A DNA stretch of 64,000 bases from Pyrodictiaceae archaeon (GCA_027036135.1 JALVSY010000016.1:32001-96000), one strand, 5' to 3'. Positions 21,022-24,349 are shown, counted from the stretch's first letter. Made by a program: numbers and translations. The notes: generated from the letters alone by a model not told the origin.

Positions 21022-21579
21022 GTGCTCGGAGACGTAAAGGTTCTTGCCGCAGAGGTGGCGGATAACAAGCGCCTACTAGCAATGATGCTCTACCTCTCCA
21101 CGGGCGCGAAGGCGGTCAAGGATGTCGTGAGCCTAAGGGTCTACGAGGCTGGGAAGGTAAGGGTCAAGAAAAGGGTCAAGGAGCGGGTCGAGAAGCCCTG
21201 GGGCACCACCTACGACGATGTAGAGAAAGAGGTTCTAGAGGAACAGTGGAGCTACTACCCGTTGCCCCAGTCCACGGCTTATCGCATACTGAAGAGGCTT
21301 AGGGAGCTAGGCCTGGTAGAGGCCTATAGGGGGCTCGATTACCGTAAGCGCTACTATAAGCTCACAGAGCTCGGTAGAAACGTGGCGGAGAAACTTAAGG
21401 AGCTCCTCATAGAGAAGCTGAAGACAGTCGCTCGCATAGAGAACGGCAAGTACCTAGTAACAGAGAATAAAATAGAGGAGACAATAAGGCTCGAGGCCAG
21501 CCTCGTAGCCGAGGCCCTAGGCTTGAGGAAGGGTGAGACCTATGGCAAGACATACTACGTGGTACCGAAGAAGGTTTAA
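21022..21579 (+). CDS. Winged-HTH (MarR/PadR-like) DNA-binding protein
   Basis: PQSTAYRILKRLRELGLVE...RKRYYKLTELGR. Confidence 0.8.
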   Translation: MLGDVKVLAAEVADNKRLLAMMLYLSTGAKAVKDVVSLRVYEAGKVRVKKRVKERVEKPWGTTYDDVEKEVLEEQWSYYPLPQSTAYRILKRLRELGLVEAYRGLDYRKRYYKLTELGRNVAEKLKELLIEKLKTVARIENGKYLVTENKIEETIRLEASLVAEALGLRKGETYGKTYYVVPKKV

Positions 21580-21820: not shown

Positions 21821-22123
21821 GTGTTGCTCGGCCTGCTTCTCCACAACTTTCCTAAGGGTGTCGTATGCCGCCTTGTACCATCCATCTATCTCCCATGATG
21901 TGAACCTATACTCGGCCTCTACCTCGCTTAGCCAGTCAGCTATTATGTCGACCAGCTTGTCGTCCACGAGCCCCGCCTTCTTAGCCTCGTAGAGTAGCTG
22001 CAACACCTTGCTCAAAGCCTCGTATGCCGCCTTCGCCTCGACATAGGCCAATACCCTGGGAACAAAATCTGGGTCCACGCTCCTACCAGCCACGAGATCA
22101 AATACATGAACCCACTCCACCAC
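21797..22123 (-). CDS. Hypothetical helical protein (element-associated)
   Basis: 108-aa ORF with GGGGTGG SD, divergent from the AbrB gene. Confidence 0.6.
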   Translation of the reverse strand: MVEWVHVFDLVAGRSVDPDFVPRVLAYVEAKAAYEALSKVLQLLYEAKKAGLVDDKLVDIIADWLSEVEAEYRFTSWEIDGWYKAAYDTLRKVVEKQAEQHLGEATGT

Positions 22124-22148
22124 AAACCACCCCTCTGGCTGGTTCTCC

Positions 22149-22185
22149 GATTCTGTTCAGAATCTGAGCAGACTCAGATATAAAG
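22149..22185. promoter_or_regulatory. Two overlapping inverted repeats next to a TATA box in the divergent promoter
   Basis: GATTCTG-TT-CAGAATC (22149-22164) and ATCTGAG-CAGA-CTCAGAT (22162-22179), then TATAAAG. Confidence 0.55.
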
Positions 22186-22226
22186 CTTTCTTCCCTTACT
22201 CTACTCTGAAGCTGGGTAGAATAACC

Positions 22227-22400
22227 TTGGCGGGTGTTGTGAGGCTAAGAGCTAAGCAGACTAAACCAGGATATCATAGCTACGAGATTACCCTGCCAAA
22301 AGACCTTGTAGAGCTCCTAGGCTGGCAGCAAGGAGACAAACTAGTAGTCGAGCTCCACGAGAAGAGTGGCAAGAAGGGATTATTCATCTACAAGCCCTAG
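22227..22400 (+). CDS. AbrB/MazE/SpoVT-family DNA-binding protein (57 aa, not in ORF track)
   Basis: Hand translation MAGVVRLRAKQTKPGYHSYEITLPKDLVELLGWQQGDKLVVELHEKSGKKGLFIYKP. Confidence 0.85.
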   Translation: MAGVVRLRAKQTKPGYHSYEITLPKDLVELLGWQQGDKLVVELHEKSGKKGLFIYKP

Positions 22401-22407
22401 GAAGGGC

Positions 22408-22484
22408 GGCCCGCGGGGATGATGAGCGCGGCAGGATCGGATCCGTGAAGAGCGGACTTAACGCTGACCCTGAGCCCGCGGGCC
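22408..22484 (+). ncRNA. Box C/D guide sRNA (sRNA-2)
   Basis: C ATGATGA 22419-25, 12-nt guide GCGCGGCAGGAT, D' CGGA 22438-41, C' GTGAAGA 22445-51, 12-nt guide GCGGACTTAACG, D CTGA 22464-67; flanking 10-bp stem GGCCCGCGGG/CCCGCGGGCC. Confidence 0.9.
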
Positions 22485-22602
22485 ATTTAGTATGGGTAAT
22501 GGCACAGTCGCGGATAAGCTTACCGCTGCGTAGGGACCAGCGAGCCAAGAGATAAACTAGTAGCTGAGAACGTGGATTATCTCCTATACGCGGAGTTGGG
22601 CC

Positions 22603-22797
22603 GTGGATGCTACTGTGCTCCCCCGAGCAGCTAGAGAGCTACGAGAAAAACACAACGACATAGCCAGGCTATTCTACAAAGCCCACCTCGAGGGCAGAGG
22701 CGATAAGGCATCCATGATCCTCGCAGACTGGCTACTAGGCGAAATAGACAAGAAGGAAGCACTAAGAAAACTAAAACAACTCCTAGGAGAAGAATAG
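22603..22797 (+). CDS. Hypothetical protein (element-associated)
   Basis: 64-aa ORF with GGAG SD and helical composition. Confidence 0.55.
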   Translation: MDATVLPRAARELREKHNDIARLFYKAHLEGRGDKASMILADWLLGEIDKKEALRKLKQLLGEE

Positions 22798-22821
22798 AAA
22801 CAATAAGCTAGCCCATTGTTA

Positions 22822-22890
22822 TATAGAGGCCAACTAGTCCTCTATAGAGGGGTATGGATTCTTCTTGGAGAGCTCTATAGCCTTATATAT
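22822..22890. promoter_or_regulatory. Repeated (C)TATAGAG boxes upstream of the RHH gene, putative operator
   Basis: TATAGAGG..CCTCTATA inverted repeat, palindrome CCTCTATAGAGG 22839-22850, CTCTATAG 22873-22880, TTATATAT box. Confidence 0.5.
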
Positions 22891-22899
22891 GGGTAGTGG

Positions 22900-23169
22900 G
22901 TGGTGCCTTCCTACTACAAGGGTAGGCGTAGCTACTGTTTCTGGGTGGACGAGGACCTGTTCATAGAGCTGGATAGGGTTGTCGAGGAGATGGGCTACAG
23001 GAGCCTATCCGAGTTCTACAGGGAGCTAACCAGGGAGATTGTAGCGAGCTACAAGGCAGTACGTAAATTTGGCCTCAGGGGCCAGGAAGCCAAGCCATTC
23101 GTATTCGAGTACGTGAAGGAGAAGCTACTAGGCATGCTCAAGGCAAAGAAGAGGAGAACACAGCGCTAA
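22900..23169 (+). CDS. Ribbon-helix-helix (CopG-like) protein
   Basis: RSYCFWVDEDLFIELDRVVEEMGYRSLSEFYRE pattern. Confidence 0.8.
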   Translation: MVPSYYKGRRSYCFWVDEDLFIELDRVVEEMGYRSLSEFYRELTREIVASYKAVRKFGLRGQEAKPFVFEYVKEKLLGMLKAKKRRTQR

Positions 23170-23306
23170 GCAGCAGAGTTAGCTTAACTACCTGAGCCCC
23201 GCACCCGATGAACTCTCATTCAAGCTCCTCTTGGCGAGGCATTCCCGCCTGTCAGGAGAGGCTATCTACGCGTTAACCACAAATTAGACTCCACAAGTAC
23301 TCCCAA

Positions 23307-23563
<257 letters not shown>

Positions 23564-23824
23564 ATCCCTCCGTTGCGGGAGGGTCTCCACTTGTAGAAGA
23601 CCTAGCTATGGGGTTCTGGTTTATATGCTTTGGTCCTTCTCTTGGTGGGACTCGTTTCCCTTGTTCTATTGTTTCCTCTACGAGGCTGGGGATTAGGATT
23701 ATATAGGGAGCAGTGGGTGTGTCTCTCGTAGCGGATGTAGGTGGCTGTTTGAGTCCGCCAGCGCGACTAGTAGTGTGCCAGCTCGGTTTAGAAGCGCTGG
23801 TCTCTTGTGGGGTGAGGCGTCTCG

Positions 23825-24349
23825 GTACAGATACCACTTGATTACGTCTGTGTTAAGAGTGGCGTCCTATGTCCTCGCTGCCAGAGCCTTATTGATACGG
23901 GGGCTGTCCAAGAGTTCGAAGTCGATATTATGAGGGCATTGATAGAGCTTGAGGAAAACGAGGGCATGCAGATACTGAAGAAAGCAACCTATTACAAGTC
24001 ATACATGATTGGTGACGACTTAGTGATTATAGTGATGGATCTCGGTGTTGGTACTAGTGTACCGGTGTTTAGTAGATATGCAAGACAGATAGAGCAAAAG
24101 CTTAGAGAAAAACTAGGTAAGCGGGTAAAGGTTATACCACGTGCCAATGATGTTCGTGGTCTCGCTATGCACCTCTTATACCCAGCACGGATACTTGGCG
24201 TGAACACGCTTTGGTTACCCGATGGCAGCATCGAGTACGTTGTGCGGATACCCCGAAGCGATGCTAGGAGGCTCAGCAAGCACAAGGAGATGTATGAGAA
24301 AATATTGTCAGAGATACTCCGAAAACCAGTTAGAATAAAGTCCACGTAA
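23825..24349 (+). CDS. NusA-like KH-domain transcription factor with N-terminal Zn motif; apparent GTA start
   Basis: Frame is open from 23816 as (V)QIPLDYVCVKSGVLCPRC..., with LLYPARILGVNTLWLPDG downstream; first ATG only at 23930. Confidence 0.8.
   Translation, partial: VQIPLDYVCVKSGVLCPRCQSLIDTGAVQEFEVDIMRALIELEENEGMQILKKATYYKSYMIGDDLVIIVMDLGVGTSVPVFSRYARQIEQKLREKLGKRVKVIPRANDVRGLAMHLLYPARILGVNTLWLPDGSIEYVVRIPRSDARRLSKHKEMYEKILSEILRKPVRIKST

What the first reader, a model, noticed from the sequence alone, without database searches (positions are those of the whole stretch)
22408..22484. Canonical C/D sRNA whose two guides would bridge the 16S 5' end and the central domain
Seen: exact C-12nt-D'-C'-12nt-D geometry plus a 10-bp terminal stem, directly after the AbrB stop codon, so probably co-transcribed. 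From remembered archaeal 16S sequence (not searched), the D' guide segment CGGCAGGAT(C) complements (G)AUCCUGCCG at the 16S 5' end, and the +5 rule points to the U of AUCCU. The D guide GCGGACTTAACG complements CGUUAAGCCCGC (about E. coli 870) with one mismatch. Inference: the two targets are about 850 nt apart but both near the central pseudoknot, suggesting a folding-chaperone role as well as methylation.
Basis: partly seen in the sequence, partly recalled or inferred. Interest (0 to 1): 0.75.

Follow-up and report, generated by a model that had tools for sequence, protein, structure and literature searches.

The report
Archaeal C/D methylation guide RNA
This is an ordinary-looking archaeal box C/D small RNA that should guide methylation of the organism's own 16S ribosomal RNA, but it belongs to an unusual long-stemmed, multi-copy family that swaps its guide sequences and also rides on integrated mobile elements.

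Summary
Window 22408-22484 carries C box, 12 nt, D', 3 nt, C', 12 nt, D box inside a perfect 10-bp stem, 7 nt after an AbrB-family ORF; 0 of 100 shuffles give the box pattern. The genome encodes fibrillarin, Nop5 and L7Ae.

This is only marginally above chance (881/20000), and a G.U-rich 23S site rivals it.

The RNA is one of four copies in this genome. The long-stem family exchanges guide modules: the positional ortholog in a sister genome has both guides replaced. The copy with this guide pair in genome G019 lies inside a 14.5-kb integrated element.

The bridging/chaperone idea is untested here and already in print (PMC4644070, PMC7994747). No RNA data exist. Verdict: new member of a known kind, moderate interest.

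The parts
22227..22400 (+). 57-aa AbrB/MazE-type (SpoVT/AbrB fold) ORF. Its TAG stop lies 7 nt before the sRNA stem, so it is the probable co-transcription partner.
   Evidence: ORF list; Pfam PF04014 at 26.4 bits against cut-off 24.7. Homologous AbrB 3' ends precede 6 of the 11 family copies read. Co-transcription is inferred.
22408..22417 (+). 5' arm of the 10-bp terminal stem (GGCCCGCGGG).
   Evidence: Covariation over 26 related sequences: 97.7% of 256 cells paired, 8 of 10 pairs with changes on both sides, 0 of 500 shuffles as high.
22419..22425 (+). C box ATGATGA (consensus RUGAUGA).
   Evidence: Invariant in the 9-sequence alignment A1 except for one degenerate copy.
22426..22437 (+). 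D' guide GCGCGGCAGGAT. The best Watson-Crick match is own 16S nt 11-19 (10-19 with the first D' box base); N+5 = U15 (E. coli U20). The rival is 23S 464-476.
22438..22441 (+). D' box CGGA.
   Evidence: The CGGA / UGAAGA combination recurs in other C/D candidates of this genome.
22445..22451 (+). C' box GTGAAGA.
22452..22463 (+). D guide GCGGACTTAACG. It makes 10 contiguous Watson-Crick pairs with own 16S 1044-1053 (N+5 = A1047, E. coli A1092). The second site is 16S 829-840, 11/12 (N+5 = A833, E. coli A872).
22464..22467 (+). D box CTGA, followed by CCC (22468-22470), which can pair with GGG 22415-22417 as the short stem next to the K-turn.
   Evidence: Rfam snoPyro_CD alignment pairs GGG with CCC.
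22470..22473 (+). Second CTGA between the D box and the 3' arm (tandem D-box-like motif). It is not the guide-defining box.
   Evidence: The 12 nt upstream of it have no good rRNA or tRNA complement. Tandem CTGA also occurs in long-stem relatives G127, G109 and G103.
22475..22484 (+). 3' arm of the terminal stem (CCCGCGGGCC).
22485..22530 (+). 3' flank partly conserved among copies (ATTTAG ... GGATAAGCTTACCGC, a near-palindrome). Role unknown.
   Evidence: Seen by eye; not analysed further.

Best explanation
Window 22408-22484 encodes a box C/D sRNA.

Inferred mechanism. The RNA is transcribed together with the upstream AbrB-family gene. L7Ae binds the terminal C/D K-turn and the internal C'/D' K-loop. 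A Nop5 dimer and two fibrillarins assemble on them. Each 12-nt guide then pairs with about 10 nt of nascent rRNA, so that the nucleotide opposite the fifth guide base upstream of D or D' is 2'-O-methylated.

Predicted targets.
- D guide: most likely 16S A1047 (E. coli A1092), with A833 (E. coli A872) as a weaker second site.
- D' guide: probably 16S U15 (E. coli U20). It appears to be derived by two substitutions from an ancestral guide for 16S 1024-1034, and it may instead be directed at 23S U469 or be weak.

Family. The 10-bp G+C stem is a conserved RNA (or DNA repeat) feature of a multi-copy family. The family evolves by exchanging C-guide-D' and C'-guide-D half-modules, and copies are also carried on integrase-bearing mobile elements.

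Shown here: the anatomy, the complementarities, the family, stem covariation, synteny with guide replacement, the mobile-element location of relatives, and the presence of the protein machinery. Inferred: transcription, RNP assembly and methylation.
For: Anatomy and chance: (1 match in the window; 0 of 100 shuffles with any match). All 12 Rfam E-value matches are C/D families.

Machinery: fibrillarin 355.6 bits, Nop5 253.8 bits and two L7Ae-family genes.

Guides. The D guide makes 10 contiguous Watson-Crick pairs; 233/20000 or 250/20000 shuffled guides reach that. The D' guide makes 10 contiguous pairs with the box base counted; 881/20000 reach that. Both meet the published 9-bp criterion (methods passage of PMC4644070). 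No site with 11 or more complementary bases exists elsewhere in the genome, apart from the genes' own antisense strands.

Family. BLAST and covariance model R1 find 10 strong copies (65 bits or more) in 3 of the 29 genomes searched in the taxonomic family: G000 has 4, G002 has 3, G019 has 3. Stem covariation is strong: 8 of 10 pairs with double changes, 0 of 500 shuffles as high. Among 15 C/D candidates in this genome, the three family members captured have 10-bp stems and the other 12 have 0-6 bp.

Support for A1047. Relatives carry the near-identical D guide GCGGACTTAGCG together with a D' guide ending GGCACGAG (G002b, metagenome locus L184) or GGCACGAC (L185). This D' guide complements 16S 1024-1031, 19 nt upstream. 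A distant long-stem relative (G127) pairs 11 bp with the orthologous site of its own 16S, and the guide change matches the 16S change. Linked double guides within 100 nt are the published norm (PMC4644070 passages; PMC7994747 section 4).

Support for U15. The 9-mer CGGCAGGAT is identical in 4 copies from two genera, and variation is confined to guide positions 10-11. In G019 the guide of copy G019b matches that genome's 16S at 11 of 12. Published sRNA sequences of I. hospitalis (sR58) and M. kandleri (sR23) contain CCGGCAGGAG, which by my reading complements the same 16S stretch (supplement 1 of PMC4644070).
Against: There is no expression evidence of any kind. No RNA run is listed for this DNA, and the genome is a metagenome-assembled one.

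Bit scores are below every Rfam gathering threshold.

The D' match alone is weak statistically: 2591/20000 shuffles and 1099/20000 random genomic 12-mers reach 9 bp, and by a simple score 113/300 shuffles do as well. A 23S site is isoenergetic and is conserved in G019 too. The substitutions seen among copies are compatible with either site.

The D guide has two sites, and the 11/12 site scores higher by simple pair counting. The conserved G at both guide ends pairs only with the 829-840 site.

One copy sharing the D' guide (G019b) has degenerate C and D boxes, so identity of the guide need not mean selection.

Stem complementarity would also be kept by a DNA-level inverted repeat.

The alignment used was fitted to the model.
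Confidence: 0.72

Rival explanations
1. The D' guide methylates the 16S 5' end (E. coli U20) and the D guide methylates the central-domain site (E. coli A872). The RNP holds these two segments, about 820 nt apart, together near the central pseudoknot as a folding chaperone.
For: Both complementarities exist on the organism's own 16S. The 829-840 duplex is 11/12 and passes the published criterion of one mismatch. By a simple pair score only 3 of 300 shuffled guides do as well. In M. kandleri, sR91 carries GGCGGACTTAAC and is labelled in the E. coli 830-910 block of the published 16S alignment, where that species' 16S reads GUUAAGUCCGCC (supplements 1 and 3 of PMC4644070). One guide with a linked and a distant target, and long-range chaperoning, are described in that paper.
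Against: The mismatch (guide A opposite C836) splits the duplex into 7 + 4 pairs. The 1044-1053 site gives 10 uninterrupted pairs and a lower energy at 37, 70 and 90 C. The guide A at the mismatch position is invariant in all 5 copies carrying this D guide or its single-base variants, and it pairs with U1050 of the other site. Family relatives pair this D guide with a D' guide for the neighbouring 1024-1034 site. Three-dimensional proximity was not tested.
Confidence: 0.2
2. The element is a MITE-like or decaying repeat that only resembles an sRNA. It would be a mobile or duplicated DNA unit bounded by inverted repeats, not a working methylation guide. The rRNA matches of the D' guide would be leftovers of an ancestral guide.
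For: The element is multi-copy, with conserved 10-bp inverted termini. One copy (C2) shares only 88 nt with the window locus. Distribution is patchy: none was found in G004, a complete genome of the same genus. Copies lie on integrase-bearing elements. A MITE-like sRNA element with 15 copies is described in P. calidifontis (PMC6009581 section 22). Some copies (G019b, G003a) have degenerate boxes.
Against: The window copy has intact C, D', C' and D boxes and exact 12-nt spacers, unlike the published MITE-like elements with degenerate D'/C' boxes. Both guides meet rRNA target criteria. Other scaffold members also carry guide pairs with linked 16S targets: G019c at 1298-1306 and 1342-1353 of its own 16S, and C30b at 1024-1034. 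The window locus is syntenic in three genomes and sits among housekeeping genes. No flanking target-site duplication was seen by eye.
Confidence: 0.08

Closest known systems
Archaeal double-guide box C/D sRNAs (e.g. Pyrococcus snoPyro_CD RF00095; the sR families of Sulfolobus and Pyrobaculum; the sets of Dennis et al. 2015, PMC4644070)
   Same: C, D', C' and D boxes; two 12-nt spacers; a 3-nt D'-C' loop; a position just downstream of an ORF (common according to PMC7994747 section 8); guides complementary to conserved 16S segments. [quoted passage not shown]
   Different: It is below the gathering score of every Rfam family, so it is not a member of a curated family. It has a perfect 10-bp G+C terminal stem, whereas other candidates in this genome have 0-6 bp, and M. 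kandleri sRNAs are described as having absent or too-short terminal complementarity (PMC3695527 discussion passage). It has a second CTGA between the D box and the stem.
MITE-like sRNA elements of Pyrobaculum calidifontis (Lui et al. 2018, PMC6009581, section 22)
   Same: A multi-copy sRNA-like core flanked by conserved inverted repeats. Guides differ between copies. The authors suggest a role in spreading sRNA modules.
   Different: Here D' and C' are intact, guides have strong rRNA complements, and copy number is low (4 in this genome against 15). The window copy is 7 nt from a gene at a syntenic core locus, whereas the Pyrobaculum elements lie on average 322 nt from genes in unstable regions. 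Two relatives sit inside integrase-bearing elements, which that section does not describe.
Composite or transposed sRNAs and long-range 'chaperone' sRNAs (Dennis 2015; Lui 2018; review Breuer 2021, PMC7994747)
   Same: Half-modules (box-guide-box) recombine between sRNA genes. Guides drift to new targets by a few substitutions. Some sRNAs have D and D' targets far apart in sequence.
   Different: Here the exchange is seen at one orthologous locus across three genomes: same flanks, boxes and stem, but different guide pairs. The long-range pairing is only one of several possible target combinations.

Membership tests
Archaeal box C/D sRNA | C box RUGAUGA near the 5' end and D box CUGA near the 3' end | tested here: met
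   ATGATGA at 22419-22425 and CTGA at 22464-22467.
Archaeal box C/D sRNA | Internal D' and C' boxes forming a K-loop | tested here: met
   CGGA and GTGAAGA, one departure each. By recalled K-turn geometry, the two departing positions are the ones that face each other (U.U replaced by G/A). The same pair recurs in other candidates of this genome.
Archaeal box C/D sRNA | Two spacers of about 12 nt (archaeal norm; PMC7229835 passage) | tested here: met
   Exactly 12 and 12 nt.
Archaeal box C/D sRNA | Guide complementarity of at least 9 bp to rRNA or tRNA, with a Watson-Crick pair at N+5 (criteria of PMC4644070) | tested here: met
   D guide: 10 Watson-Crick pairs with 16S 1044-1053, and 11/12 with 829-840. 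D' guide: 9-10 Watson-Crick pairs with 16S 10-19. Chance levels are 250/20000 and 881/20000.
Archaeal box C/D sRNA | Score above the gathering threshold of a curated Rfam C/D family | tested here: not met
   Best is 28.5 bits against 42 for sR2, and 28.0 against 45 for snoPyro_CD. These families are largely guide-specific, so this bears on membership of those families, not of the class.
Archaeal box C/D sRNA | Host encodes L7Ae, Nop5 and fibrillarin | tested here: met
Archaeal box C/D sRNA | Stable small transcript; methylation at the predicted nucleotide | not testable with these tools
   No RNA run is listed for this DNA. No modification data are available.
MITE-like sRNA element (Lui 2018) | Many copies with conserved flanking inverted repeats | tested here: met
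   Four copies in this genome and 10 strong copies in 3 genomes, all 9 aligned ones with perfect 10-bp arms. The copy number is low.
MITE-like sRNA element (Lui 2018) | Degenerate D'/C' boxes, orphan or non-conserved guides, location far from genes in non-syntenic regions (PMC6009581 section 22) | tested here: not met
   The window copy has intact boxes, rRNA-matching guides, a 7-nt distance from an ORF, and synteny with G002 and G019.
MITE-like sRNA element (Lui 2018) | Signs of transposition (target-site duplication, empty sites) | tested here: inconclusive
   No flanking direct repeat was seen by eye. The C2 copy shares only the 88-nt unit with the window locus. No empty-site comparison was made.

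The most novel reading that the evidence does not exclude
Integrative elements or temperate viruses of this hyperthermophile lineage carry working box C/D guide RNAs aimed at the host's own 16S rRNA. The exact guide pair of the window RNA sits inside a tRNA-Glu-integrated 14.5-kb element in genome G019 and on an integrase-bearing contig in this genome. Such elements would alter or reinforce host ribosome methylation. They would also act as vectors that spread guide modules and overwrite them at chromosomal sRNA loci, which would explain the patchy distribution and the guide replacement at an orthologous locus.
Probability: 0.25. Interest if true: 0.7.

Novelty: new member of a known kind. Interest (0 to 1): 0.4.

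Why it matters
As a single gene it adds one more predicted methylation guide to a poorly annotated hyperthermophile, with concrete sites to test: the 16S equivalents of E. coli A1092, A872 and U20. The family around it is more useful. First, one scaffold with a 10-bp stem carries at least four different guide pairs. It shows guide-module exchange at a single orthologous locus and retargeting by two substitutions, which makes it a compact natural system for studying how archaeal guide RNAs evolve. Second, copies lie on integrated mobile elements. Two full-text searches found no paper describing C/D sRNAs borne on archaeal viruses or plasmids, so this raises the testable idea that mobile elements move rRNA-modification guides between hosts.

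Tried and rejected
- Rfam at gathering thresholds found only two tRNAs in the window.
- A simple match score with shuffles was too permissive of G.U pairs to be useful for the D' guide.
- Sequencing runs: no RNA holder is listed; 15 DNA-type runs hold the stretch.
- Two viral-contig scans, one with an exact 42-mer and one with a box-and-scaffold pattern, found nothing.
- The metagenome scan found only 2 loci, both with the variant D guide.
- Second CTGA as the true D box: the 12 nt before it have no good target.
- Other targets: no site with 11 or more complementary bases anywhere else in the genome. The best tRNA hits are poor.
- Terminator reading of the stem: rejected because no T run follows (only TTT) and the stem encloses conserved boxes.
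- TIGR/Tas-like reading (PMC12045711 passages): rejected because this is a single unit with K-turn-type RUGAUGA/CUGA boxes, not an array. No search for a Tas gene was made.
- Supplement search for the 23S 465 site in the published alignment was uninformative.
- Earlier-findings look-up by place returned nothing.
- Additional file 2 of PMC4644070 was not among the three supplementary files held, so that paper's own site assignments for Iho sR58, Mka sR23 and Mka sR91 could not be read. The label spacing in the alignment supplements was lost.

Full report
**1. What is there**

Reading the window gives the following, in order:
- a 5' arm GGCCCGCGGG (22408-22417)
- C box ATGATGA (22419-22425)
- a 12-nt spacer GCGCGGCAGGAT
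- D' box CGGA (22438-22441)
- a 3-nt loop
- C' box GTGAAGA (22445-22451)
- a 12-nt spacer GCGGACTTAACG
- D box CTGA (22464-22467)
- seven bases CCCTGAG that hold a second CTGA
- a 3' arm CCCGCGGGCC (22475-22484) that pairs perfectly with the 5' arm

The ORF 22227..22400 stops 7 nt before the stem. It is an AbrB/MazE-type protein (PF04014, 26.4 bits against cut-off 24.7).

The box pattern with these spacings occurs once in 64 kb, and in 0 of 100 shuffles. Rfam's E-value mode returns 12 matches on this stretch, all of them C/D-box families, but all are below their gathering scores (best 28.5 against 42). The gathering run finds only two tRNAs in the window. The genome encodes fibrillarin, Nop5 and two L7Ae-family proteins.

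**2. Targets on the organism's own RNAs**

The genome's single 16S and 23S lie on contig C30. I mapped own positions to E. coli numbering by aligning to an annotated E. coli 16S.

D' guide:
- It makes 9 contiguous Watson-Crick pairs with 16S nt 11-19, or 10 if the first D' box base is counted, as the published criteria allow.
- N+5 falls on U15, which is E. coli U20.
- The support from chance alone is weak. 2591 of 20000 composition-matched shuffles and 1099 of 20000 random genomic 12-mers reach 9 contiguous pairs. 881 of 20000 shuffles reach 10 with the box base counted.
- A 23S site (464-476) gives a 12-bp duplex with three G.U pairs at the same energy (-20.2 vs -19.8 kcal/mol at 37 C). It is conserved in G019.

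D guide:
- The same 16S has a second site, 1044-1053, with 10 uninterrupted Watson-Crick pairs at guide positions 2-11 (N+5 = A1047 = E. coli A1092).
- Only 233 or 250 of 20000 shuffled guides reach 10 pairs.
- The 10-bp duplex is more stable at all three temperatures tried.
- It fits the finding that archaeal RNPs use at most 10 nt of substrate and modify 9-10-bp substrates well (passages of PMC7229835). That the 10 pairs occupy positions 2-11 is my recollection.

Other possibilities were checked. No site with 11 or more complementary bases exists elsewhere in the genome, and the second CTGA defines no guide with a target.

**3. The RNA is one member of a family**

Copies found:
- BLAST over 41 related genomes and a covariance model built from nine copies find 10 strong copies (65 bits or more) in 3 of 29 genomes of the taxonomic family.
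- This genome has four: the window; contig C2 at 97% identity; and a convergent pair on C30.
- G002 (same genus) has three and G019 (another genus) has three. G003 has one degenerate copy.
- None was found in G004, a complete genome of the same genus.
- At the level of the order, 13 of 151 genomes have weaker matches. These are other C/D sRNAs with long G+C terminal stems.

The stem:
- On 26 aligned sequences the 10-bp stem is paired in 97.7% of 256 cells. Eight of 10 pairs show changes on both sides, and no shuffle of 500 reaches this.
- The alignment was fitted to the model, and a DNA-level inverted repeat would give the same signal.
- Within this genome, a looser box scan gives 15 candidates (0 on the reversed genome). 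The three family members it captures have 10-bp stems, and the other 12 have 0-6 bp.

**4. What the family says about the targets**

Evidence for A1047 as the D target:
- Copies with the near-identical D guide GCGGACTTAGCG (G002b and two metagenome loci), or GCAGACTTAGCG (C30a), carry D' guides ending GGCACGAG, GGCACGAC or GACACGAG. These complement 16S 1024-1031, just 19 nt upstream of the 1044-1053 site.
- The long-loop copies C30b and G002c pair 11 bp with 1024-1034.
- G019b's D guide pairs with 1054-1062.
- A distant long-stem sRNA in G127 pairs 11 bp with the orthologous stretch of its own 16S. Its guide reads A where its 16S reads U instead of C.
- So the family's guides tile own 16S 1024-1062 (E. 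coli 1069-1107). Published predictions are already dense in this block (supplement 3 of PMC4644070).
- Linked targets within 100 nt are the published norm. This favours A1047 over A833 for the D guide.
- The evidence cuts both ways. The guide's terminal Gs pair only with the 829-840 site. M. kandleri sR91 has a related guide that is labelled in the 830-910 block, where that species' 16S is a perfect match.

Evidence on the D' guide:
- The window's D' guide differs from the 1024-1034-type guide at guide positions 1 and 4. Both changes break pairing there and create pairing with the 16S 5' end.
- The resulting 9-mer is identical in four copies from two genera. Variation is confined to positions 10-11.
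- In G019 the match to its own 16S is 11 of 12 for G019b.
- G019b has degenerate C and D boxes, so identity need not mean selection.

My estimates:
- D' guide: about 55% for U15, about 20% for 23S U469, the rest for an orphan or weak guide.
- D guide: about 60% for A1047 as the main site, about 25% for A833; both may be used.

**5. Guide exchange and mobile copies**

Guide exchange at one locus:
- G002 contig C23 is colinear with window 21976-23991 at 87.5% identity over 2040 columns. Its sRNA is therefore the positional ortholog, yet both guides are different while flanks, boxes and stem are the same.
- Its guide pair recurs in G019c, where it matches that genome's 16S at 1298-1306 (9 Watson-Crick pairs) and at 1342-1353 (10 of 12).
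- G019b is also syntenic with the window (78%). It shares the D' guide but has a long loop and another D guide.
- This is module exchange of the kind described as composite sRNAs (PMC6009581 passages; PMC4644070 passage), here seen at one locus in three genomes.

Mobile copies:
- The C2 copy shares only 88 nt with the window locus. Contig C2 carries an archaeal phage integrase (PF16795, 7e-20; phrog_5127, 8.3e-19), an Mrr-like nuclease and a MarR-type regulator.
- G019a has the window's guide pair. It lies 38 nt after an integrase-like ORF (phrog_5127, 6.9e-9).
- G019a sits inside a roughly 14.5-kb segment bounded by 56-nt direct repeats. The left repeat overlaps tRNA-Glu. The segment has lower G+C than its flanks, a DnaA-like ATPase (phrog_5484, 1.9e-23), and 10 copies of a GTTTC...GAAAC motif.
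Five of these motif copies lie within 3 kb of the sRNA, whereas this whole genome has three, which is the chance level.
- The window locus itself is core chromosome: NMD3, TruD, CDC48, FEN1 and tRNA-Ala lie nearby.

**6. Comparison with what is known**

- The class is the archaeal double-guide C/D sRNA. The features tested are met, except for a curated Rfam family score and for expression and methylation, which cannot be tested here.
- The bridging or chaperone idea is stated in the abstracts of PMC4644070 and PMC7994747, with named examples.
- Placement right after an ORF without its own promoter is described as common (PMC7994747 section 8).
- The closest special case is the MITE-like sRNA element of P. 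calidifontis (PMC6009581 section 22, read in full). The window RNA differs from it in having intact internal boxes, rRNA-matching guides and a syntenic, gene-adjacent position.
- For M. kandleri, terminal complementarity is described as absent or too short, with circularisation proposed instead (PMC3695527 passage). A conserved 10-bp stem is therefore a notable variant.
- Two full-text searches combining 'box sRNA' with virus, provirus, plasmid and mobile-element terms found no paper describing such RNAs on archaeal mobile elements. That is a limited search of an open-access library.

**7. Verdict**

This is a real and well-formed C/D sRNA gene, at about 0.85 for the class and about 0.72 for the explanation as a whole. 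The proposed pairing of targets is one of several, and it is not the best supported for the D guide. The chaperone inference is neither new nor tested. The finding is a new member of a known kind. The family's scaffold, its guide exchange and its mobile-element copies give it moderate interest.

Noticed in passing
G000 contig C2:7258-7334 (-), locus L183: A 97%-identical copy of the window sRNA with the same D guide and one change in the D' guide. It lies on a 12.7-kb contig that carries an archaeal phage integrase (PF16795, phrog_5127), an Mrr-like nuclease, a MarR-type regulator and a 1016-aa ORF with no family. Homology to the window locus is limited to 88 nt.
   Followed up: partly
G000 contig C30:80006-80083 (+) and 80265-80352 (-), locus L033: Two further family copies in convergent orientation about 180 nt apart. 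The second follows an AbrB-like gene and has a long D'-C' hairpin loop. The same pair exists in G002 (C297).
   Followed up: partly
L005 (G002 C23:447-523), syntenic with window 21976-23991: The positional ortholog of the window sRNA has identical flanks, boxes and stem, but both 12-nt guides are replaced. The same guide pair in G019c matches G019 16S at 1298-1306 and 1342-1353.
   Followed up: yes
L186/L187 (G019 C1:188878-203446): A roughly 14.5-kb integrated element bounded by 56-nt direct repeats, the left one overlapping tRNA-Glu. It has lower G+C, an integrase-like ORF, a DnaA-like ATPase, RHH proteins and 10 GTTTC-N16-19-GAAAC motifs. It contains sRNA copy G019a, which has the window's guide pair.
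   Followed up: partly
L170, L174, L175 (G127, G109, G103; another taxonomic family of the order): Long-stem C/D sRNAs with tandem D-box motifs (CTGA-C-CTGA) before an 11-bp stem, like the CTGA-CC-CTGA of the window RNA. The role of the second box is unexplained.
   Followed up: no
window 22485-22530: The 3' flank is partly conserved among the AbrB-linked copies and the C2 copy. It includes a near-palindrome (GATAAGCTTA/TC). It could be a promoter or a protein-binding site for the downstream small ORF 22603..22797.
   Followed up: no
window 23464-23584: The tRNA-Ala(GGC) gene at 23487-23563 (-), with its flanks, has 92-95% matches of 85-122 nt elsewhere in the genome (C30:62687-62808 and C30:207209-207293). 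These could be paralogous tRNA genes or att-like partial duplications.
   Followed up: no
G000 contigs C7 and C30 (coordinates): Twelve further C/D sRNA candidates from a simple box scan (0 on the reversed genome), all with terminal stems of 0-6 bp. The scan is strict and surely misses most of the repertoire.
   Followed up: no
window 21022-21579: A 185-aa winged-helix protein (PadR/TrmB-like; weak Replic_Relax match) and several small ORFs with no family lie between the housekeeping genes and the AbrB-sRNA module. This small island is conserved in G002 and G019.
   Followed up: no
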